IMG/VR virus record: IMGVR_UViG_3300033998_000198
Location: 67,935-131,934 of that record
From: a virus
DNA length: 64,000 nt
Strand: one strand, 5' to 3'
The translations under genes and the position numbers were made by a program. Shown one piece after another: positions 22,531 to 59,522 of the stretch (its first letter is position 1; each line of letters begins with the position of its first letter). The notes beneath the pieces are model-generated. The model made no database searches, was not told the DNA's origin, and saw only the letters and a list, made by a program, of their open reading frames with translations.

Positions 22531-24524
22531 GTATTAGTCAAAGACAAATCCAAACGGTAACCGATAAGGCGGTGGAAACTTTGCTAAAGGCCGGACAACT
22601 GCCTAATACTGCTGATATTAACAAGTATGTCGATACATTCTTTGCCGGTAAAACTCCCGGGCTGCCTTATTACAGACCAACAGAAGTTGCAGAAGGAGAA
22701 GTTTCAGATCCTGATAGCTACAACAGAATGTTTCAGGATCTCAAAACAGACCTTGATACAATTTTTTCTGAGAACATATACCAGAATAATAGAATTGTAT
22801 CAATGTTTGATTACTATGCAACTGAGAAGGAACGCCTGGATGCAGCGGTTGAAAAACTGCAACTGAGAGTTGACGGTCTGCTCGATTCCCTAAAGTCCAG
22901 TAAAGCAACTGAAGGATTCATTGAATCATTTAATAATTTCTATGGAGTTGAGCTATACGGCGATAAGGCCCGAAATATTCCGAAGACTTCTGCTTTTGTC
23001 GACCTTGTGCAGAGAAAAGTATATAATGAGAAGCTGACACGACCGCAAGATAAGATTGATATTTCATCAGCCTCAATAACTATAACTCCTGTAACAACCA
23101 TTAACGGCTCAACTGTCCTTGGTGCTGCCGAGAATATATTAAAAGATTCAACCAATGAAACCTGTACGTGGATATTCACCAAAAACGGAGACGGAGAATG
23201 TATTATAGAGCTGCTTGTAAAGATGAAAGATGCTGCAACGGCAAGTTCTGTTGTAATTAACACCAAGTCAACAAAGGCTGCCAATATTAGCCTTCAGATA
23301 TCTGAAGATGATGTTAATTATAAAGACTTAATGGATATTGATACAGCTTCGTTTGCTGAATGGAATTTTAACAGAACGCCTGTGAAATTTATGAAGTTCA
23401 GAATTAAGAAATATGAGCCTGATGGCGATACCGGTTCTTCAAGTGAATATTACTTTACAATCTGCAATATATCGCTTGTAAACGACAATTTCATGAACAA
23501 GAATGTATTTGTCAGTAAACCGATAACCATAAACAAAATCCCCGACAAGGCTACATTGATAACGGAAGACGTAATCTATCCAAATACCGATATCAAATAT
23601 TATCTTGGGATAGACAACGGGATCGACAAAGTTGACTGGAGATTAGTTCAAAGCGGAGTGCCATATGACTTTGGCCTTCTTACTCCAAGACGTGAGATTG
23701 TTACCAACAATGTAAGTCCTTACAACTATGACGGCAAAGTGTCGAGGATATGCAAACTTCATGAGAATACGGACAAAAATACAATTAACCTTATGCTTGG
23801 ATACCAGATGTGGTTTCATGAAAGGTTCAGTTTGCCTGACTCTGTAGTAAATGAAACCGACGCTTCTGGGAGAAATATCTTCGAACCAGGAATTGGCCAA
23901 ATGATTTACCCAAAGATCGGCAATTCATTCTATGATTGCGAGATATACGATCTCAATGTTAAGGCTGGAGAGCTGAACGTATATACACAGTATGTAATAT
24001 GCGGTCAGGATGTTTCTATCAGTCATAGAAAAATCATTGGCAGCGTGAAGCATTCGATTTATGTCAATAATATCGTAGTGCAGCCAATAGACGGGAAGTA
24101 TACGATCAATCTGGTAAAGGGTATAAATAAAGTCCAAATGTGCATTTATTCATATTCAGACACAACAGTGTCCCACAATATCAATATGAAGAACGCTTCA
24201 TTTGATATTTATTGTAGGCTTGCACTCAGGCAGGTTACAGAACACAACCTTATATCCAACACTAAGGACGAGGATCTGAATTTCTTCGCTGTAGATTCAG
24301 AAGGGTATATTATTGTGAAGTACGACCCGAAAAAAGCCGGGTTGTGTTACAATATAAATAATGATGATTTGATTCGTTATGTAGTTGAGTATAAATATAT
24401 ACCGAACGATGTATTAACTGCCTACCCGGATAATACTCTGAAGATCAGGGTAATGGCGACGCTGACAAGTTCGTATGACGACATTTCGCCTCAAATCATG
24501 AACTACAGGATTATATCTGAATAG
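22527..24524 (+). CDS. Putative tail/baseplate protein (paralog family)
   Basis: DSYNRMFQDLKTDL and IRVMATL...SPQIMNYRI motifs; ATGA-coupled. Confidence 0.6.
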   Translation: MSISQRQIQTVTDKAVETLLKAGQLPNTADINKYVDTFFAGKTPGLPYYRPTEVAEGEVSDPDSYNRMFQDLKTDLDTIFSENIYQNNRIVSMFDYYATEKERLDAAVEKLQLRVDGLLDSLKSSKATEGFIESFNNFYGVELYGDKARNIPKTSAFVDLVQRKVYNEKLTRPQDKIDISSASITITPVTTINGSTVLGAAENILKDSTNETCTWIFTKNGDGECIIELLVKMKDAATASSVVINTKSTKAANISLQISEDDVNYKDLMDIDTASFAEWNFNRTPVKFMKFRIKKYEPDGDTGSSSEYYFTICNISLVNDNFMNKNVFVSKPITINKIPDKATLITEDVIYPNTDIKYYLGIDNGIDKVDWRLVQSGVPYDFGLLTPRREIVTNNVSPYNYDGKVSRICKLHENTDKNTINLMLGYQMWFHERFSLPDSVVNETDASGRNIFEPGIGQMIYPKIGNSFYDCEIYDLNVKAGELNVYTQYVICGQDVSISHRKIIGSVKHSIYVNNIVVQPIDGKYTINLVKGINKVQMCIYSYSDTTVSHNINMKNASFDIYCRLALRQVTEHNLISNTKDEDLNFFAVDSEGYIIVKYDPKKAGLCYNINNDDLIRYVVEYKYIPNDVLTAYPDNTLKIRVMATLTSSYDDISPQIMNYRIISE

Positions 24525-24526
24525 GA

Positions 24527-24787
24527 GTGAGGTCAGTGATATATCCGATTGGGGTAAAAGAAAACAGTAGATACCGTGGTCCGATAGAAAGCATTAAAAC
24601 ACTTAGAACCAACGGTGATATTGAACAGAACATCAAACTGCTGTATAATAAATTTATGGAGCTTGAGGAATTAAATACCTATATTAAAACAGTCCTTGAT
24701 GATAACAACATATACAAGTCTCACAGGGATATCAAGGTAATAGACGGCAATACGAGCTCATTTATAAAGGAGGCTGACAACAGTTAA
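24527..24787 (+). CDS. Small structural-operon protein; last 4 codons and stop come from the inserted element
   Basis: GTG start after AGGA. Removing element 24774-26697 gives ...IKEAMVNG* overlapping the ATG at 26707. Confidence 0.6.
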   Translation: MRSVIYPIGVKENSRYRGPIESIKTLRTNGDIEQNIKLLYNKFMELEELNTYIKTVLDDNNIYKSHRDIKVIDGNTSSFIKEADNS

Positions 24788-24841
24788 GAAAAATTTATAA
24801 AATTTTATAAAAATCTATACACAATTTATAAAAAATCCCAC

Positions 24842-25009
24842 CTATTTGGTAGGATTGGTATATTTGATAATTAAATCTTGTAATGCTTCATCAAGCAATT
24901 TAGACTTAGGAATTTTAGTGTCTTTGCTTAACTTTTCAAATGCTTCATAGATTTTTATATCTACTGCGTTTGAGATGGGTTTTCTGTTTTTAAGACCTCG
25001 ATTATTCAT
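24842..25009 (-). CDS. Ribbon-helix-helix protein divergent from tnpB (55 aa)
   Basis: MNNRGLKNRKPISNAVDIKIYEAFEKLSKDTKIPKSKLLDEALQDLI has an RHH pattern; GGAGG RBS; homologous to 58621-58782. Confidence 0.75.
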   Translation of the reverse strand: MNNRGLKNRKPISNAVDIKIYEAFEKLSKDTKIPKSKLLDEALQDLIIKYTNPTK

Positions 25010-25094
25010 AAAATCACCTCCTAAAAAATATTGTACAACTACTTTTAAATACTTGCAACTACTTGTAGTTTGTAGTAAAATAATAATTAGGAGG

Positions 25095-25324
25095 TTCACT
25101 ATAGTTAATAAAAAGTTATAAAAAGTCATAAATTAATGAAATATGAAAAATCAGCATAATTCACTTAACGAATTATGTTGGTATGTACGGTGTCGTTACA
25201 TCGGAATTTAAGCCTTTGGAGAGTCATACCAAACGCAAGTAGGATTCCGAAAGCGGACTCTATGAATAAGGAAAAGAACATAAAAGTTATAATTTTATAA
25301 CTTTTTATAAGTTTCTTATAACGG
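25095..25324 (+). mobile_element. Nested 230-bp non-coding IS607-like mini-element B (left end + omegaRNA) in the RBS of tnpB
   Basis: GGAGG at 25090-25094, then left end TTCACTATAGTTAA..TTATAA, then omegaRNA scaffold ending TTTCTTATAACGG. Removal gives GGAGG-tgaaacga-ATG (25333). Confidence 0.8.
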
Positions 25325-25344
25325 TGAAACGAATGATTAGAACC
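25180..25344 (+). ncRNA. omegaRNA candidate B; predicted guide TGAAACGAATGATTAGAACC (tnpB start)
   Basis: Shares GGAATTTAAGCCTTTGGAG, GTAGG, ATGAATAAGGAA, AACATAAA and TAACGG blocks with the other copies; boundaries approximate. Confidence 0.65.
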
Positions 25345-26520
25345 TACAAAGTAATGCTTTTACCTAATAACAAACAAAGAATAAAGCTGTTTGAATGTGC
25401 TGGAGTTGCAAGATGGGCATACAACTGGGCATTAGAACAGCAACAGATTAACTATAAAAATGGTGGTAAATTTTTAGATGATAAAACTTTAAGAAAAAGG
25501 CTAACAGAACTTAAACAGACAGAAGAATACAAGTGGCTTAATGACTATTCAAATAACATTACAAAACAAGCAATAAAAGATGCCTGTATTTCTTATAAGA
25601 ACTTCTTTGAAGGTAGAGCCAAATTACCAAAGTTTAAATCTAAGAAAAGAAGTAAACAAAGTTTTTATCAAGATACTGATAAAATTGTTGTAACAGATAC
25701 TCATGTTAAATTAGAGAAACTAACTACTTCTAAAAAGAAAAACAAACAAAAATTAAATTGGATTAAATTATCTGAAATAGGCAGAATGCCGATAGGTGAA
25801 AACATAAAATACTCTAATCCACGCATAACATTTGATGGTCTAAATTGGTGGTTATCAATAGGAGTAGAAGAAGATATAAAGCAAGATAGTTCTAAGTATT
25901 CAGAAGGGATTGGTGTAGATTTAGGAGTAAAGGATTTAGCAGTAGTTAGCACAGGGCAAAAGTTTAAGAATATAAACAAGTCAAACAAAGTAAAGAAACT
26001 TGAAAAGATGCTTAGAAAACTACAAAGAAAACTATCTAAAAAATATGAGTTGAATAAAATTGAAACAGAAGGAGGTGAATACCGTTACAGAAAGACTAAA
26101 AATATTAAAAAGTTAGAATTCCTTGTTCTAAAGGTGCGAAGAAGGCTTAAAAACATAAGGCACAATTATATTCATCAGACAACTACATCTTTGGTGAGAA
26201 GCAAGCCTGAATATGTAGTAATGGAAAGTTTAAATACTTGCGGGATGTTGAAGAATAGAAAACTGTCAAAGGCAATACAAGAACAAGTTTTTCATGAGTT
26301 TAAAAGACAGATGGAATATAAGTGTGCATGGAATGGAATTAAGTTTATACTTGCAGATAGATTTTATCCTTCAAGCAAAACTTGCAGTAGATGTGGCAAT
26401 GTAAAGGATACCCTATCCTTATCAGAAAGAACCTTTATATGTGATAGATGTGGATATGAAATAGATAGGGACTTAAATGCAAGTATAAATCTTAAAAACT
26501 ATGGTAAATCAATAGCATAG
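25333..26520 (+). CDS. tnpB: TnpB RNA-guided endonuclease (IS607-associated type); ORF track extends to a junction GTG at 25324
   Basis: N-terminal HTH; RuvC-I GVDLG, RuvC-II VVMESL, zinc finger CSRCG/CDRCG, RuvC-III DRDLNA; catalytic D-E-D intact. Confidence 0.92.
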   Translation: MIRTYKVMLLPNNKQRIKLFECAGVARWAYNWALEQQQINYKNGGKFLDDKTLRKRLTELKQTEEYKWLNDYSNNITKQAIKDACISYKNFFEGRAKLPKFKSKKRSKQSFYQDTDKIVVTDTHVKLEKLTTSKKKNKQKLNWIKLSEIGRMPIGENIKYSNPRITFDGLNWWLSIGVEEDIKQDSSKYSEGIGVDLGVKDLAVVSTGQKFKNINKSNKVKKLEKMLRKLQRKLSKKYELNKIETEGGEYRYRKTKNIKKLEFLVLKVRRRLKNIRHNYIHQTTTSLVRSKPEYVVMESLNTCGMLKNRKLSKAIQEQVFHEFKRQMEYKCAWNGIKFILADRFYPSSKTCSRCGNVKDTLSLSERTFICDRCGYEIDRDLNASINLKNYGKSIA

Positions 26521-26529
26521 CACCAGACG

Positions 26530-26717
26530 CAACTATTGATATGTACCGATTCGTTAGTCGGGAATTTAAGCCTTTGGAGTGTCAAGCAAACATGAGTAGG
26601 TTTATCCGAAAGAGGACATGATGAACAAGGAAGGAAACATAAACTTTTATAAGGTTTAAGGAAAATCTTATAGAATTTTATAAGTTTTCTGTAACGGCAA
26701 TGGTCAATGGATAACGT
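26530..26717 (+). ncRNA. omegaRNA candidate A; predicted guide CAATGGTCAATGGATAACGT
   Basis: Directly 3' of tnpB and ending at the element right end (GTAACGG, 26697); conserved scaffold blocks. Confidence 0.7.
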
Positions 26718-27939
26718 ACCATCCTTTAGAAAACAAGAAGTAAAGTTCAGATCAACTGCATCCAGCGAACAATACAATCAGATGCAGGACAGTGCACTTT
26801 ATGATATCCTGAATCTTTTCAACAAAGCAAACAAGCTGGAAAGCGATCTTTTAGACACAAAAGACATCGTCTTTACTGAGAATAAGTATATGCAGTTGAA
26901 GATCCAATCCCTTGAAGCAAAGTTGGCCACGATGGCACAGCTATATAAAGATCTGACTACTGCCGGGAATAAATTAATGACGCTCAACGTATATCCGAAC
27001 CAGATGTATATAAACAGCTCATCCAGCGTTCCTGCATTTGTAGATACTGCCTGCATGGATGTAACGCTTCCGTTTGCCTCAAAAACAAGCAAGGTTCATG
27101 TATATGACGACGTATCCGACACTGTGTTTATTCCTGATTCATTGGTTGCTGAGAACAGTATAATAACACCGACCAAAGGAATCATCGAAATTACAGAGAA
27201 TGATATCATGAATGCGTTCAACGGAAACAACAGTTCTTACTGGAGAAAAAAAGTAATTACCGACAATACTGTAAACGAAGTAAACATGCAGATTGTCATA
27301 GGGCTTCCTGAAGACATTATATCAAACAGGGAAATCAATGCAGTTATCTTCTCTCCATTCCCATATGGCTCACTTGATCTGGTAAATATCGAATACAAAT
27401 TGTTCGGCGACTGGACCCAGATTCCTTCATTTAGCGAGCACTCCGAAGGAACGCTCGAATCATATTCCGATGTTTTCGGTAATATAAGTTATAAACCGAT
27501 TATTCCAGGAGTAGGTAACATTAAGTTCTGTTTCAATGACATCAGTGCATCTGAACTCAGAATCACTGTAAGACAAAGAAACTACACACAGGAGAATGGT
27601 AACCGGGTATTTTATCTTGGTGCCCGTGAAATTGAAATAGTCAATTATAAGTACAATAAAGATGTAGCTACATTCTATACAAAAGTTATATTCCCAGGCA
27701 ATCCTGTTAAGGTTGTGTGTGATATACAATCTATATTGAATAACCAGGGAGAAATCGGGAAGAATGTTGTACAGTATGAAATGTTCACACTGGACGACTA
27801 TGATCGGCCATCAAAGATAACAAAGGGATTTCCCTTTGAAATATCTAACGGTAAAATGCTTGTCAAGTGTGACATTTACAAAAATAATACTTCGCCGGCA
27901 TTAAATAAGATAAAAGTTATTTATAAAGAAAAAATATAG
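26707..27939 (+). CDS. Putative tail/baseplate protein (paralog family); SD displaced by element A
   Basis: SSEQYNQMQDSALYDI and VKCDIYK..TSPALNKIKV motifs. Confidence 0.6.
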   Translation: MDNVPSFRKQEVKFRSTASSEQYNQMQDSALYDILNLFNKANKLESDLLDTKDIVFTENKYMQLKIQSLEAKLATMAQLYKDLTTAGNKLMTLNVYPNQMYINSSSSVPAFVDTACMDVTLPFASKTSKVHVYDDVSDTVFIPDSLVAENSIITPTKGIIEITENDIMNAFNGNNSSYWRKKVITDNTVNEVNMQIVIGLPEDIISNREINAVIFSPFPYGSLDLVNIEYKLFGDWTQIPSFSEHSEGTLESYSDVFGNISYKPIIPGVGNIKFCFNDISASELRITVRQRNYTQENGNRVFYLGAREIEIVNYKYNKDVATFYTKVIFPGNPVKVVCDIQSILNNQGEIGKNVVQYEMFTLDDYDRPSKITKGFPFEISNGKMLVKCDIYKNNTSPALNKIKVIYKEKI

Positions 27940-41954: not shown

Positions 41955-43197
41955 CTAAGCAATACGTAGATACTTTATTTCTCTTGTCTTTCCTAAGTAC
42001 CTAATATCATTATATTTATACTTAGATAATATATTTTTGCTTCCATGTATATCTCTATGCTCTTTATATCCACATTTACATATATAATTCCTCGTAGAAG
42101 TTTTCTTCCTTCTACCACAAACAGGACATGTTTGTGTAGTATATCCTTCGTTGATTTTAGTTATATTTATTCCTTCGGCTTTTAATTTGTATTCTAAATA
42201 TTTATATAATTTACCAAACTGCCATTGACTTAATTTTTGATTGGTATTTTTATTCATTTTCTTTTTAGTGTTTCTTTGTACTCCATCAATATCACCTATT
42301 ACCACTTCATTGACTTTATTTTCGATACACCAATCAACATATTGCTTAGTTGTTTTATGAAGTATATCAGTTAATTGATTGTCAGATTTAGATAGTATAT
42401 ATTGTTTTGCTTTATTGTACTTTTTACATTTTCTGCTACCTTTCTTACATTTGCTCATTTTCCTTTGTAATTCTGCTATCTTTTTATTTCTTAGTCTTTT
42501 TATACTTCTTGCCTTACGTCCAGTTATTATAATCGCATTACCGTTTTCACAATATGAACTAATTGTGTGTATTTCTCCTACGTCTATCCCTGCTATGTTT
42601 TTATGATTATTTATACTTTCAATTAATCCATCTTCATATGTTAATGATAATTTTAATCCTCTATCATATATTAATTCAATTTCTTTTATTTTACCAATTT
42701 GTAGTTCTTTAACATGGACTATAATAGGCTGTTGTCTCTTACCATTCCATATACCCATACTTAACTCAATTTTGCCATTATCATACACCTTGAAACCATC
42801 TTTAGCCCATTTTGTATTATAATTCTTTTTCTTTTTATAAGGATATCTATTGTCTAATCCTTGTTGCTTTGCTTTATGTGCTGCATCTCTTGCAAATAAG
42901 TATTTATGGCATACTGCTTGTATTGATTGAGAATGCAATGGATATTTGTTTTTTAATGCTTTTTGTAATTCTGTTTTATTAATCCATTTACCATCATTAG
43001 CAAGAGAGTATTGTTTAGCAATGTCTAAACAATCATTCCATATTTGTGCTGATATACGGTTACATTCGTAAAGTCTATTTAGATTGGTTTTAGATGTTTT
43101 GAATGTAGTTTTTAAGCAACGTATCACGTTCTCACCTCACTTTTCAGCAATTCATCTCCCACCTATAGAGGATGGGAGAATTCTTGCTGATTCTCCG
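41779..43197 (-). mobile_element. IS200/IS605 (tnpB-only, IS1341-like) element
   Basis: TTTAA target then left-end hairpin (about 43140-43190); right-end hairpin CTCCAACC..GGTTGGAG ending GGTTCAT; AT-rich. Confidence 0.8.
41955..43127 (-). CDS. tnpB: TnpB, rearranged-RuvC type
   Basis: GIDVG; VVIGD at the canonical RuvC-II position with E in INEGYTTQTC; HRDIHG; zinc finger. Confidence 0.88.
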   Translation of the reverse strand: MIRCLKTTFKTSKTNLNRLYECNRISAQIWNDCLDIAKQYSLANDGKWINKTELQKALKNKYPLHSQSIQAVCHKYLFARDAAHKAKQQGLDNRYPYKKKKNYNTKWAKDGFKVYDNGKIELSMGIWNGKRQQPIIVHVKELQIGKIKEIELIYDRGLKLSLTYEDGLIESINNHKNIAGIDVGEIHTISSYCENGNAIIITGRKARSIKRLRNKKIAELQRKMSKCKKGSRKCKKYNKAKQYILSKSDNQLTDILHKTTKQYVDWCIENKVNEVVIGDIDGVQRNTKKKMNKNTNQKLSQWQFGKLYKYLEYKLKAEGINITKINEGYTTQTCPVCGRRKKTSTRNYICKCGYKEHRDIHGSKNILSKYKYNDIRYLGKTREIKYLRIA

Positions 43198-43517: not shown

Positions 43518-43670
43518 GTTTGTAACCGTTACGCAAAACTTATAAAACTTTACAAAAACATTGTAAAAGTTTATGTTTGCTTCCTCGTTCATAGTGTCCG
43601 ACCTCGGCTAACCTACTATCGTTTGATGTGACACTCCAGAGGCTTGAATTCCCGTGTAACTCACGGTACA
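43506..43670 (-). ncRNA. omegaRNA candidate C; predicted guide TTACAAACATGAACAAAAAA (hup start)
   Basis: GGAATTCAAGCCTCTGGAG, GTAGG, ATGAACGAGGAA and AACATAAA blocks. Confidence 0.65.
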
Positions 43671-44072
43671 CCTTAATGCCAATCGTTCTGGTGATTCGCA
43701 TTAAGTAACGGTTTCCTCCTTTCTCAATTTATTCATCAAAAATTAAGTGAACCTCCTACGACTTCAGTCGTAGGCTTCTTCCTGCTTCTTCGTCCTCGTA
43801 ACCTACTAACTCCACAGGCGTTAATTCCGATAGTTCCTACCGTACTTCTGTCCTTACTCATGACTAAAGTCACGAGAATGCGGACATTAACACTTCAATT
43901 TTTGCTTGGTTTTCGCTATTCATCACGGTGCTAAAGACCCTCTCCATTCTATTGGATGCTTATACCACTTTCGCAGTACCCTGGATTCACATTAGAACAC
44001 ACCGACCACAACGCTATGTGGATTTTTACATAATTTTATAATGTTTTATAAAAATCCTTTAACTGTTGTTAC
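43526..44072 (-). mobile_element. Non-coding IS607-like element C (547 bp), inserted after GGAGG of hup
   Basis: GGAGG at 44073-44077; left end GTAACAACAGTTAA; right end TTTTATAAGTTTTGCGTAACGG. Removal gives AAGGAGG-ttacaaac-ATG. Confidence 0.8.
43747..43885 (-). mobile_element. 139-bp IS605-type mini-element (LE hairpin + omegaRNA-like + RE) nested in element C
   Basis: TTAAT target (43886-43890); CTCGTGACTTTAGTCATGAG left hairpin; GGAATTAACGCCTGTGGAG; CCTACGACTGAAGTCGTAGG right hairpin ending TTCAC. Confidence 0.7.
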
Positions 44073-57220: not shown

Positions 57221-57370
57221 TAGATTACCCGTTACAGAAAACTTATAAAAAGTTATAAATTAACTTTTATGTTTCCTTCCTTATTCATCCTGCCCGGTTT
57301 CGGAAACCTACTCCCGTTTGATATAGCAGTCCAAAGGCTTAACTTCCCGAATAACGTATCGGTACTACAC
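57209..57370 (-). ncRNA. omegaRNA candidate D; predicted guide GTAATCTAATGAAACCGATT
   Basis: GGAAGTTAAGCCTTTGGA, GTAGG, ATGAATAAGGAA and AACATAAA blocks 3' of tnpB. Confidence 0.7.
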
Positions 57371-57387
57371 GCATAAACGTTTTGTGT

Positions 57388-58509
57388 TTATGCTGTTACT
57401 GGATATTTCATCAGGTTAATACTTGCGTTTAAATCCCTGTCATGTAATGTTCCACATACTGGACATACCCATTCTCTTGTTGAAAGAGATAATTTTTCAA
57501 GTATGTGCCCACATTCAGAGCACATCTTTGACGATGGATAAAACCTGTCTGCTATTATCAACCTGATACCGTTCCATTCGCATTTATACTCCATCTGTCT
57601 GCGGAATTCTTTCAATGTCTGTTCCTGCACCGCTTTTGCAAGTTTGTGGTTTTTAATCATCCCGCTGACATTCAAATCTTCCATTACAACGTATTCCGGC
57701 TTGGTTTTCACCAGTTTTGTTGTTATTTGATGGATATAATTTGTGCGAATGTTTTTAAGCCTTTGATATGTCTTACGAATAAGGCGCTCCAGTTTTATAA
57801 TATTCTTTGTTTTTCTGTAACGGTTTCCCTCCTTTCCTTTTTCATATTTTTTCGATACTTTCCTTTGGATCCTTTTTAGTTTCTTTTCCAACTTCTTAGC
57901 CTTTTTGCTTTTATTTATGTTTTTGAATTTTTCACCTGTACTCACTACAGCTAAATCCTTTACCCCTAAGTCTATTCCTATAGGCTCTGAATGTGAGGTA
58001 CCGTCTTGTACAGGGTGAAATTCAATACATACTGTTAACCACCAGTTTAAACCGTCAAATTTAATTCTTGGATTCAAGTATTTACCATCAGGTAAAGGCT
58101 CTGCTACTTTTACCCAACCTATTTTCTCTAATACAACTTTGCCGTTTTTGTACTTTAATTTATCTTCTCTCTGATAAAAAGAAGGTTTACTGTGTTTTTT
58201 GCTTTTGAATTTTGGTTTGTTAGAAACCCCTTTAAAGAACCTTTGATATGCTAAACACGCATCTTTTACTGCCTGCTTTGGTATTTGTGCTGATACATCA
58301 TTTAGCCATTTATACTGTTCTGTTTTCTTTAATTGTGTTATCTCTTTTCTTAATTCTCCGTCTGGTATGAACTTCCCACCATTTTTATAATTTTCCTCTT
58401 GCCTTGCCAAAGTCCAATTGTATGCCCATCTTGCTACTCCTGCACACTCAAATAGCTTTGTTTTTTGCTTGTTGTTCGGCTTTAACTGTATTTTATAGGT
58501 TTTTATCAT
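57388..58509 (-). CDS. tnpB: TnpB RNA-guided endonuclease (IS607-associated type)
   Basis: GIDLG, VVMEDL, CSECG/CPVCG and DRDLNA; catalytic D-E-D intact; clearly homologous to 25333-26520. Confidence 0.92.
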   Translation of the reverse strand: MIKTYKIQLKPNNKQKTKLFECAGVARWAYNWTLARQEENYKNGGKFIPDGELRKEITQLKKTEQYKWLNDVSAQIPKQAVKDACLAYQRFFKGVSNKPKFKSKKHSKPSFYQREDKLKYKNGKVVLEKIGWVKVAEPLPDGKYLNPRIKFDGLNWWLTVCIEFHPVQDGTSHSEPIGIDLGVKDLAVVSTGEKFKNINKSKKAKKLEKKLKRIQRKVSKKYEKGKEGNRYRKTKNIIKLERLIRKTYQRLKNIRTNYIHQITTKLVKTKPEYVVMEDLNVSGMIKNHKLAKAVQEQTLKEFRRQMEYKCEWNGIRLIIADRFYPSSKMCSECGHILEKLSLSTREWVCPVCGTLHDRDLNASINLMKYPVTA

Positions 58510-58620
58510 TCTATCACCACCTTATATAATCTTCTATTATATAATCTTCTATAAGTATTGTATCATAAAACTTATTGTGTTACAATAAGTTTATATAATT
58601 TTATATAAGGAGTGATAAAT

Positions 58621-58782
58621 ATGACTGATTTAAAAAACAGGGTTCGCATTGGTACATCGGTAGATATACAAACTTATAATGCTTTAAAAAAACTATCCGC
58701 ACAAACTCAAATACCTATGAGTCGGTTACTTGATAAAGCCATTGAGCTTGTTTTAAAAGAGTATGGAAAGCCTGTTAAATAG
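58621..58782 (+). CDS. Ribbon-helix-helix protein divergent from tnpB (53 aa; below ORF-track cutoff)
   Basis: AAGGAG RBS; MTDLKNRVRIGTSVDIQTYNALKKLSAQTQIPMSRLLDKAIELVL. Confidence 0.75.
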   Translation: MTDLKNRVRIGTSVDIQTYNALKKLSAQTQIPMSRLLDKAIELVLKEYGKPVK

Positions 58783-58811
58783 CAGGCTTTATAACTTTTT
58801 ATAAGTTTTGT

Positions 58812-59522
58812 TTAACTGTTGCTCCACCTCCCTATTTTCTGTTTGTACCCACATTCTTTGTTCTCACAAAGTCTGTATTCAGTTCCTTCCTGCATGGTTG
58901 TTACTGTTTCAGCACCACACATTGCACATGGATGCTCAAATTCAAAGAATGACAGTGGATCTTCCCATGCTGCAAACCATTTTAAGAGCTTGCTGGTTGA
59001 CAGGCATTTCGGACAAAATCCTTCAGTGTTTTCGTCGGCAGCAAGTTGAACTACCGGATAACTGTCATCTCCTTCAGTGTTTTTATAAACATAGTTATTG
59101 ATATCTATTCCTGTTCCCGTCTTTACAACTTCCAAATCACCATCAAGAACACGGAATGCAATGATCCCGTCTACCGACACAATGGCTGATTGTCCGCAGT
59201 CAGGACATCTGAAATAACTTGCCTGCTTGGTTTGTCCGGTTTCGTTTAGCTGCACCTCAACACGTTTTCCTCCTTCGACAAGGGTAAGAGTTTCACGCTT
59301 CTTGTCAAAGTTCGGAAGTCTTGGTCTTACAACTTCTCTTTCATTATACTCAGGCTGGTCAAGCCTTGGTGTCGGAGACGGTTTAACAGTCTTGTCCTCA
59401 ACAGGAACTCTTACTTGTATAAAATCCTCCAACATCAAGGCTTGTTTACCAGGTATATTAAAAGGCTTAATAGAACTTGCATATCCTATCAATCCTTCTG
59501 TTGTATAGATTTCAAACTTCAT
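58812..59522 (-). CDS. Multi-zinc-ribbon hypothetical protein; last codons come from element D
   Basis: CPDC, CPKC, CAMC and CENKEC motifs. Confidence 0.55.
   Translation of the reverse strand: MKFEIYTTEGLIGYASSIKPFNIPGKQALMLEDFIQVRVPVEDKTVKPSPTPRLDQPEYNEREVVRPRLPNFDKKRETLTLVEGGKRVEVQLNETGQTKQASYFRCPDCGQSAIVSVDGIIAFRVLDGDLEVVKTGTGIDINNYVYKNTEGDDSYPVVQLAADENTEGFCPKCLSTSKLLKWFAAWEDPLSFFEFEHPCAMCGAETVTTMQEGTEYRLCENKECGYKQKIGRWSNS

What the first reader, a model, noticed from the sequence alone, without database searches (positions are those of the whole stretch)
25090..25344. Parasite of a parasite: RNA-only mini-element in the RBS of tnpB, with a guide matching tnpB's own start
Seen: a 230-bp left-end plus omegaRNA unit splits GGAGG from the tnpB ATG (25333), so tnpB is flanked by two omegaRNA scaffolds. 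The upstream guide would read TGAAACGAATGATTAGAACC. Inference: it could direct TnpB to cut copies of element A lacking the mini (homing within a homing element), compete for TnpB, or reduce tnpB translation.
Basis: partly seen in the sequence, partly recalled or inferred. Interest (0 to 1): 0.75.

Follow-up and report, generated by a model that had tools for sequence, protein, structure and literature searches.

The report
Guide-RNA mini-transposon nested in tnpB's ribosome site
A 230-bp gene-less remnant of one IS607 transposon, which still carries an intact guide RNA, has jumped into the ribosome-binding site of the nuclease gene of a different IS607-type element in a phage, and public metagenomes of the same site also hold that element without the insert and the phage without the element.

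Summary
Window 25095-25324 is a discrete 230-bp insertion between the AGGAGG Shine-Dalgarno (25089-25094) and the ATG (25333) of tnpB in element A (24774-26697). It has a 44-bp left end and a complete RAGATH-18 guide RNA (omegaRNA/reRNA) that keeps 32 of 32 consensus base pairs.

It is not a normal part of the element. All 32 IMG/VR relatives carry one RAGATH-18, always downstream of tnpB. One metagenome run contains element A with exactly these 230 bp missing. Other runs contain the phage with all 1924 bp of element A missing.

The mini is about 99% identical to the ends of 2074-bp IS607 elements (serine-recombinase tnpA plus tnpB) found in bioreactor metagenomes. It is an internal-deletion derivative of that lineage. 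That lineage's TnpB is only 53% identical to TnpB-A.

Its position follows from published biology. This family has TAM AGGAG and recombines at a GG core, so insertions land on ribosome-binding sites. All four copies in the window do.

The self-directed guide is what any insertion produces, but its target allele exists in nature, so homing is plausible. Expression, loading and reduced translation were not tested.

The scan noted a truncated relic of this family in another phage before.

The parts
24774..26697 (+). Element A, 1924 bp including the mini. Order: left end, divergent RHH gene, promoter region, [mini], tnpB, guide RNA, right end ending in TAACGG. No tnpA.
   Evidence: A contig joint 24771->26696 skips 1924 bp in runs X4 and X1, which is the empty phage site.
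24842..25009 (-). Small ribbon-helix-helix gene (55 aa), divergent from tnpB. Element C has the same gene in the same position.
   Evidence: Pfam RHH_3, E 9.7e-13. Homologous ORF in element C.
25053..25081 (+). Promoter-like site (TTGCAA, 17 nt, TAAAAT) just upstream of the SD. It would transcribe the mini as the 5' leader of the tnpB-A mRNA. This is inferred.
   Evidence: It is a consensus match only; the number of such sites in the region is not above chance.
25089..25094 (+). AGGAGG: the Shine-Dalgarno of tnpB-A. It also equals the family TAM (AGGAG) plus the first G of the target. GG 25093-25094 is the recombination core on the left side.
   Evidence: TAM from PMC11061315. GG core from bioRxiv 10.1101/2023.11.20.567912.
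25095..25324 (+). The mini element (230 bp), a non-autonomous internal-deletion derivative of a 2074-bp IS607.
25095..25138 (+). Left end of the mini (44 bp). Its 36-nt core is identical to the left end of full-length parent L055. The parent's promoter, which follows this point, has been deleted.
   Evidence: A loose end behind 25138 continues into the parent promoter.
25134..25159 (+). Deletion junction (shared short repeat at 25134-25138), followed by the last codons and the TAA stop of the parent's tnpB.
   Evidence: alignment. A loose end before 25134 reads the parent's TnpB C-terminus.
25173..25324 (+). Guide-RNA scaffold of the mini: 5' flanking motif, RAGATH-18 (25213-25273), 3' flanking motif ending in TAACGG.
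   Evidence: 69.3 bits. (32/32 consensus pairs). Architecture as in PMC11061315.
25324..25343 (+). Predicted 20-nt guide of the mini's RNA: G plus the tnpB-A leader, start codon and first codons.
   Evidence: Position follows from the family architecture. The intact target is absent from the window but present in run X3.
25333..26520 (+). tnpB-A (395 aa). RuvC D/E/D and the zinc-finger cysteines are present.
   Evidence: Pfam. Alignment to 8iaz_A, E 1e-68.
26526..26697 (+). Element A's own guide-RNA scaffold (RAGATH-18 at 26571-26632), 72% identical to the mini's.
57229..58826 (-). Element C: the same architecture (RHH, tnpB, guide RNA) without a mini. Its tnpB has GGTGG, 7 nt, then ATG.
43526..44072 (-). 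Element B: a 547-bp tnpB-less copy with an intact guide RNA at its right end and a degenerate RAGATH-18-like stretch inside. It is also inserted between AGGAGG and an ATG.

Best explanation
Window 25095-25324 is a miniature, gene-less IS607-family transposon. It arose from a 2074-bp parent (MerR/resolvase tnpA, tnpB, RAGATH-18 guide RNA) by deletion between two short repeats. What remains is 44 bp of left end joined to the last roughly 190 bp, which comprise the tail of tnpB, the whole guide-RNA scaffold and the right end.

A serine recombinase supplied in trans inserted it at a GG core inside AGGAGG. None is encoded in the 132-kb phage record. This is the family's normal target, because its TnpB reads AGGAG as TAM. 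This particular AGGAGG is the ribosome-binding site of tnpB in element A, which belongs to a different lineage and is itself non-autonomous inside a phage.

Inferred consequences:
1. The mini has lost its own promoter, so it is transcribed as the leader of the tnpB-A mRNA.
2. Its RNA carries a guide equal to the tnpB-A leader and start. With a compatible TnpB it would cut element-A copies that lack the mini. Repair from a mini-bearing copy would then spread or retain the mini, which is the canonical TnpB homing role.
3. tnpB-A keeps only a weak SD (GGTGA), so its translation should drop.

I put anatomy and origin at about 0.95. I put homing by this RNA in nature at about 0.4-0.5, and reduced TnpB-A output at about 0.6.
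For: RAGATH-18 match of 69.3 bits. Alignment of 27 guide RNAs with 19 of 32 covarying pairs, of which the mini keeps 32/32.

All 32 relatives have a single RAGATH-18, downstream of tnpB. Element C in the same window lacks the insert.

Contig joints:
- A 230-bp skip at 25092->25323 in X3, at phage depth (about 50).
- A 1924-bp skip at 24771->26696 in X4 (depth 223, against about 6 for the element) and in X1.

The mini's 30-mer occurs in 24 metagenome loci, mostly full-length elements. The 2074-bp parents have AGGAGG-type left flanks. The alignment shows near-identity and the junction. The parent's tnpA is MerR plus Resolvase.

All 15 mapped left flanks end in GG and are SD-like. 20 of 47 right ends are followed within 4-13 nt by an ATG opening an ORF of 60 or more codons. 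The same test gives 5.5% for random GG and 37% for AGGAGG.

Published TAM AGGAG and reRNA architecture: PMC11061315. Published GG core, circular intermediate, and the need for 40-bp LE and 60-bp RE: bioRxiv 10.1101/2023.11.20.567912.

SD duplex energy falls from -16.1 to -7.6 kcal/mol. A promoter-like site lies upstream of the SD.
Against: - No RNA data: transcription, processing and loading of the upstream RNA are unknown.
- The mini's cognate TnpB is 53% identical to TnpB-A and 63% to TnpB-C. Its scaffold is 72-76% identical to theirs. Cross-use is therefore unproven, and no cognate tnpB or tnpA lies in the 132-kb record.
- TAM-contacting residues of ISFba1 are not all conserved in TnpB-A. 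The TAM here is inferred from flanks.
- The mini keeps perfect pairing because it is a very recent copy of the parent. That says nothing about selection on it at this site.
- Contigs cannot tell whether the mini-less allele is ancestral or an excision product.
Confidence: 0.78

Rival explanations
1. Neutral passenger. The mini landed by chance on one of about 50 AGGAGG sites in this window and survives only because breaking the SD of a selfish gene costs the phage nothing. Its RNA has no role at this site.
For: - 49 AGGAGG sites in the window.
- Insertion at a tnpB SD is rare elsewhere: one other hit in IMG/VR and none among 13 distinct parent-family sites.
- The mini family is at very high summed depth in the same runs, so many insertions are expected.
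- The cognate TnpB is absent from the record.
Against: - The scaffold is complete and lies downstream of a promoter-like site.
- Related TnpBs are encoded on the same phage.
- The target allele coexists in the same study.
This rival and the best explanation share the same anatomy. They differ only in whether the RNA is used.
Confidence: 0.3
2. Regulator or decoy. The 5' guide RNA mainly acts in cis on tnpB-A. TnpB binding and 3' trimming of the leader RNA would sever or occlude the start codon, and the extra scaffold would compete with element A's own guide RNA. The result would be damping of element A rather than spread of the mini.
For: - The guide region contains the tnpB-A start codon.
- The SD is weakened.
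- A paper titled 'The Transposon-Encoded Protein TnpB Processes Its Own mRNA into omegaRNA' exists (PMC10278001, listed; I read only its abstract).
Against: No data on processing in this family's 5' context. There is no sign that such an arrangement is selected, since it is absent from 32 relatives.
Confidence: 0.12
3. The upstream scaffold is an ordinary part of element A, or a local duplication of A's own right end.
For: The two scaffolds align over their whole length.
Against: - Only 72% identity to A's scaffold, against about 99% to unrelated full-length parents.
- It has its own left end.
- It is absent from element C and from 32 relatives.
- It is precisely absent in run X3.
Confidence: 0.01

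Closest known systems
IS607-family TnpB elements with RAGATH-18-derived guide RNAs (ISFba1 and 22 others; Ren et al., Cell Res 2024, PMC11061315; structure 8iaz)
   Same: TnpB domain set. Guide RNA made of a 5' flank, RAGATH-18 and a 3' flank directly after tnpB. Guide equals the DNA next to the right end. Left flanks read AGGAG(G) or GAGG(G), like the published TAMs.
   Different: The mini has no tnpB or tnpA. Elements A and C carry a small RHH gene in place of tnpA. TnpB-A is only distantly similar to ISFba1 (E 1e-68, several TAM-contact residues differ). The paper does not mention ribosome-binding sites.
IS607/IStron transposition by serine recombinase TnpA_S (Zedaveinyte et al., bioRxiv 10.1101/2023.11.20.567912)
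   Same: A GG core at both junctions. Precise empty sites. Short end requirements (40-bp LE, 60-bp RE) that the mini meets. TnpB homing to the vacated site.
   Different: That system has TAM TGGG and a group I intron that removes the element from mRNA. The elements here have no intron, so nothing restores the split SD-ATG unit.
Non-autonomous guide-RNA-bearing derivatives of IS200/IS605 (PATE-like elements). This comparison is from my own knowledge and was not checked in a paper here.
   Same: Ends plus guide RNA without protein genes. Dependent on transposase and nuclease in trans.
   Different: Different transposase chemistry: Y1 single-strand against serine recombinase double-strand with a GG core. 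Here the copy is nested in another element's tnpB ribosome site.
Earlier scan note e1-5401883 (another phage)
   Same: A tnpB-less remnant of an IS607/RAGATH-18 element next to a phage gene.
   Different: That one had lost the RNA core and was judged a relic. This one is complete and polymorphic.

Membership tests
IS607-family TnpB element with RAGATH-18 guide RNA (elements A and C) | TnpB with HTH, OrfB_IS605 and zinc-ribbon domains and the RuvC D/E/D residues | tested here: met
IS607-family TnpB element with RAGATH-18 guide RNA (elements A and C) | RAGATH-18 RNA directly downstream of tnpB | tested here: met
   The same holds in 32 relatives.
IS607-family TnpB element with RAGATH-18 guide RNA (elements A and C) | GG core dinucleotide at the left flank and at the right end; precise empty site | tested here: met
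IS607-family TnpB element with RAGATH-18 guide RNA (elements A and C) | Serine-recombinase tnpA (MerR HTH plus resolvase domain) | tested here: not met
   None in the 132-kb record. An RHH gene sits in its place. It is present in relatives and in the mini's parent. A and C are therefore non-autonomous derivatives.
IS607-family TnpB element with RAGATH-18 guide RNA (elements A and C) | TAM 5'-AGGAG or GAGGG read by TnpB | tested here: inconclusive
   Flanks fit. There is no cleavage assay, and the TAM-contact residues are only partly conserved.
Non-autonomous mini-IS607 (the 230-bp unit) | Both transposon ends present and long enough for TnpA_S (about 40-bp LE, about 60-bp RE) | tested here: met
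   44-bp LE and a full RE. Lengths from the bioRxiv paper.
Non-autonomous mini-IS607 (the 230-bp unit) | Derived from a full-length element by internal deletion; no ORF | tested here: met
   Loose ends.
Non-autonomous mini-IS607 (the 230-bp unit) | Presence/absence polymorphism with exact boundaries | tested here: met
   230-bp skip in X3.
Non-autonomous mini-IS607 (the 230-bp unit) | Guide RNA is made and loaded on a TnpB | not testable with these tools
   The RNA runs found hold only small shares from other studies.

The most novel reading that the evidence does not exclude
The mini works as a drive inside a drive and as a weapon between transposon lineages. tnpB genes of this family start with an AGGAGG or GGTGG SD, so they are standing targets for the family's own recombinase and nuclease. 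A mini from lineage P silences a rival lineage's nuclease by splitting its SD. It then uses any compatible TnpB in the cell to convert mini-less copies during phage co-infection. The three alleles seen in one subsurface site would be snapshots of that conflict.
Probability: 0.12. Interest if true: 0.8.

Novelty: new member of a known kind. Interest (0 to 1): 0.55.

Why it matters
The finding offers a natural, well-delimited case for testing TnpB homing outside the laboratory. Closely related phage genomes from one site carry no element, the element alone, or the element with a nested guide-RNA mini, and every junction is defined to the base.

It also points to a consequence of the published AGGAG TAM that the two papers I searched for the terms do not discuss, and that a library search for IS607 with Shine-Dalgarno did not turn up as a topic. 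These elements land on ribosome-binding sites and separate them from start codons, including those of phage genes and of other transposons' nuclease genes. How the downstream genes stay expressed is open.

Tried and rejected
- Megablast of the region against GenBank phages gave no match.
- A search for related phages through the downstream 410-aa protein found none, so empty sites came from reads instead.
- The mini's 30-mer found nothing in 185,579 species genomes, so no host was identified.
- RNA runs hold only 6-9% of the sampled words and come from other studies. I did not lay them and they give no evidence on expression.
- Rfam at a permissive threshold found nothing further in element A. 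In element B it found only a weak second RAGATH-18-like stretch.
- I considered that the SD-ATG position needs a special mechanism. I rejected this because AGGAGG sites in the same DNA are followed by an ATG-ORF about as often (37%) as the right ends are (43%).
- I considered that the 32/32 retained pairs show selection on the mini. I rejected this because the mini is about 99% identical to its parent.
- I considered L013 (left end plus a 20-nt right-end piece before tnpB) as a second nested case. It may be a scar of one, but this is not resolved.

Full report
WHAT IS IN THE SEQUENCE

Between two phage genes (ORFs 24527-24787 and 26707-27939) lies element A, at 24774-26697. Its parts, in order:
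- a left end;
- a small divergent ribbon-helix-helix gene (24842-25009, minus strand; Pfam RHH_3, E 9.7e-13);
- a promoter-like region;
- tnpB (25333-26520, 395 aa, with the three TnpB Pfam domains);
- a guide-RNA region ending in TAACGG at 26697.

Rfam finds four RAGATH-18 RNAs above threshold in the window:
- 25213-25273 (+), 69.3 bits;
- 26571-26632 (+);
- 43581-43642 (-);
- 57277-57337 (-).

No others occur in the whole 131,934-base virus record, apart from one weak hit inside element B.

The hit at 25213 lies upstream of tnpB, inside a 230-bp unit at 25095-25324. This unit separates AGGAGG (25089-25094) from an 8-nt spacer and the ATG.

IT IS AN INSERTION, NOT PART OF THE ELEMENT

- Element C (57229-58826, minus strand) has the same RHH-tnpB-guide RNA layout. 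Its tnpB has GGTGG, 7 nt, then ATG, with nothing in between.
- 32 loci from IMG/VR encode TnpBs 44-80% identical to TnpB-A. Each has exactly one RAGATH-18, 50-80 nt after tnpB, and none upstream.
- Four DNA runs of one subsurface-metagenome study hold this phage, and I laid their contigs on 24300-27200.
  - In X3, a 919-nt contig at phage depth (about 50) joins 25092 to 25323 and skips exactly 230 bp. The two sides share GGT.
  - In X4, a 67.6-kb contig at depth 223 joins 24771 to 26696 and skips 1924 bp. Element A's interior has depth of only about 6 there.
  - X1 shows the same 1924-bp joint at depth 13, against 33 for the element.
  - X2 and the window carry element A plus the mini.

Three alleles therefore coexist in near-identical phage genomes: no element, element alone, and element plus mini. 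X3 and X4 share SNPs (24631, 26397, 26868). Within that shared haplotype, element A carries the mini in X4 and lacks it in X3. The gain or loss is therefore recent. The contigs do not show which direction it went.

WHAT FAMILY

Many relatives carry a tnpA gene just upstream of tnpB. The mini's parent carries one with MerR HTH and Resolvase domains. This is the IS607 family.

Two papers fix the mechanism.
- Ren et al. (PMC11061315) showed that IS607 TnpBs use RAGATH-18-derived guide RNAs. These consist of a 37-nt 5' flank, RAGATH-18 and a roughly 64-nt 3' flank, followed by the guide. TAM was 5'-AGGAG in 18 of 22 strains and GAGGG in 4 of 22.
- Zedaveinyte et al. (bioRxiv 10.1101/2023.11.20.567912) showed that the serine recombinase TnpA_S excises a circle and integrates at a strict GG core. 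It needs about 40 bp of left end and 60 bp of right end. TnpB then cuts the vacated site.

The data here fit both papers.
- All 15 left flanks I could map end in GG and are SD-like, and 8 are GGAGG.
- Six full-length parents have the same kind of flank.
- Every right end ends in GG.
- The two natural joints have GG in the ambiguous overlap.
- No resolvase gene lies in the 132-kb record, which is 61% complete. Elements A, B, C and the mini therefore all depend on recombinase supplied in trans.

WHY IT SITS IN A RIBOSOME-BINDING SITE

AGGAG plus G is the consensus Shine-Dalgarno. All four copies in the window lie between AGGAGG (GGGAGG for element C) and an ATG 8-9 nt after the right end.

I tested 47 distinct right ends. 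Of these, 20 (43%) are followed within 4-13 nt by an ATG opening an ORF of at least 60 codons. In the same DNA the figure is 5.5% for random GG and 37% for AGGAGG. The TAM alone therefore accounts for the position, and no extra targeting needs to be assumed.

The window has 49 AGGAGG sites, so hitting tnpB-A's own SD is roughly a 1-2% event. A pattern search of IMG/VR for a right end joined to a tnpB leader found one other contig, L013. None of the parent-family sites is in a tnpB SD. Survival at this spot is easy to understand, because the phage loses nothing if a selfish gene's SD is broken.

WHERE THE MINI CAME FROM

Its guide-RNA scaffold is only 72% identical to A's and 76% to C's. A 30-mer from the scaffold occurs in 24 metagenome contigs, mostly from bioreactors and digesters. 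Most of these are full-length elements. Five are exactly 2074 bp, with tnpA, a 404-aa tnpB and the guide RNA.

The alignment shows two matching segments:
- The 36-nt core of the mini's 44-bp left end (25103-25138) is identical to the parent left end (L055); the first 8 nt after the GG core vary between copies, and the mini's differ from every parent seen.
- Mini 25134-25324 matches the parent's last roughly 191 bp at about 99%.

The two segments are joined inside a short repeat shared by both sites. The mini keeps the last codons and the stop of the parent's tnpB (stop at 25157-25159). It has lost the parent's promoter, which begins right after the retained left end.

Loose ends show both parental continuations in the same runs: the TnpB C-terminus before 25134, and the promoter after 25138. 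Contigs matching the mini sum to depths of about 200 to 110,000, against 30-220 for the phage. The family is therefore very abundant in that community. These are summed contig depths, not copy numbers.

The parent TnpB is 53% identical to TnpB-A and 63% to TnpB-C. A and C are 62% identical to each other.

STATE OF THE RNA

In an alignment of 27 scaffolds, RNAalifold predicts 32 pairs, and 19 of them show compensatory changes. The mini forms all 32, against 30 for A, 29 for C and 29 for B. It contains all three published motifs.

Because it is a near-identical recent copy of its parent, this shows the RNA is intact. It does not show that the RNA is under selection at this site.

HOW IT MOST LIKELY WORKS

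Shown:
- It is a discrete mobile insertion with a GG core.
- Its guide RNA is complete.
- Its guide would be G25324 plus the next 19 nt, which cover the tnpB-A leader, the ATG and the first codons.
- The matching target, preceded by AGGAG, does not exist in the window.
- That target does exist as the X3 allele.

Inferred:
- Transcription comes from the promoter-like site at 25053-25081, because the mini has no promoter of its own.
- A compatible TnpB would cut mini-less element A. Candidates are the parent's TnpB from the host or a co-infecting phage, or TnpB-A or TnpB-C if they cross-load the RNA.
- Copying from a mini-bearing genome would then retain or spread the mini, as published for this family.
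- tnpB-A's SD is weakened.
- The phage genes next to A, C and B lose comparable SD strength: -16.3 to -7.0, -12.3 to -6.4, and -12.4 to -2.9 kcal/mol.

Not tested: expression, processing, loading, cleavage and translation.

VERDICT

- 'Parasite of a parasite' is a fair description: a mini from one IS607 lineage sits inside a non-autonomous element of another lineage, inside a phage.
- The self-matching guide and the RBS position are ordinary consequences of a published TAM and recombination core.
- The event looks like a rare chance hit, not a dedicated strategy.
- This is a new member of a known kind. Its value is as a natural three-allele system for studying TnpB homing, and as a pointer to the SD-splitting habit of this family.

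An earlier scan note (e1-5401883) described a truncated relic of the same family in another phage. I did not re-test it.

Noticed in passing
window 24774-26697, 43526-44072, 57229-58826; loci L010-L029, L039-L055: Every copy in the window, and about 40% of right ends overall, separates a Shine-Dalgarno from the start codon of the next gene. There is no intron or replacement SD in the right end. Computed SD strength for the phage genes drops by 6-9.5 kcal/mol. How these genes stay expressed is unexplained.
   Followed up: partly
window 24771/26696 joint: Element A is itself polymorphic in the phage population. The empty site dominates in run X4 (depth 223 against about 6), is a minority in X1, and was not seen in X2 or X3.
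   Followed up: partly
window 24842-25009 (-) and 58612-58782 (+); L022: Elements A and C carry a small RHH_3 gene divergent from tnpB where IS607 normally has tnpA. L022 has the same left-end-to-tnpB spacing, though I did not check it for the ORF. Palindromic repeats lie in the shared promoter region. This may be a repressor that replaces the MerR domain of TnpA.
   Followed up: partly
window 24774-24787 and 58826-58812: In A and C the upstream phage ORF runs into the left end and stops at the TAA of the conserved AGTTAA motif. The 8-nt versus 9-nt spacer after the GG keeps that stop in frame in both. With n=2 this may be chance.
   Followed up: no
window 43526-44072 (-): Element B (547 bp) has no tnpB. 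It has an intact guide RNA at the right end, a degenerate RAGATH-18-like stretch (43779-43818; 25.8 bits) and an internal GGAGG followed by TTCACT, the same 11 nt as at the mini's left junction. It may be a decayed nested or composite element.
   Followed up: partly
window 41955-43127 (-): A 390-aa ORF whose translation looks like a TnpB of a different family (judged by eye; not run through Pfam) lies next to the HU-like gene that follows element B.
   Followed up: no
L013:2416-2500: A left end (about 58 nt) is joined directly to a 20-nt right-end piece ending in TAACGG, followed by 8 nt and the tnpB ATG. It may be a scar of an earlier nested insertion at a tnpB SD.
   Followed up: partly
L016 and L032, about 2411-2435: A right end is joined at a GG inside the 3' part of a tnpA gene. 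This is another insertion or recombination within an element.
   Followed up: no
L034:2070-2393, L035:2016-2347, L033:1019-1091: Distant relatives (TnpB 44-45% identical) have a group I intron just upstream of tnpB, an IStron-like layout with RAGATH-18 downstream. L033 has a Pistol ribozyme about 1.4 kb upstream of tnpB.
   Followed up: no
window 25076-25366 in runs X1-X4: Contigs at least 90% like the mini sum to depths up to about 110,000 where the phage is at 30-220. The parent IS607 family is hugely abundant in that subsurface community. The carrier organism was not identified.
   Followed up: partly
L061:3306-3646 and L051: These are other tnpB-less derivatives of the same parent with different deletion junctions, so minis of this lineage arise repeatedly.
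   Followed up: no
window 26233-26241 (TnpB-A residues about 299-303): TnpB-A reads MESLN where relatives and 8iaz read EDLN at the second RuvC motif. The catalytic E is kept and the neighbouring D is S.
   Followed up: no
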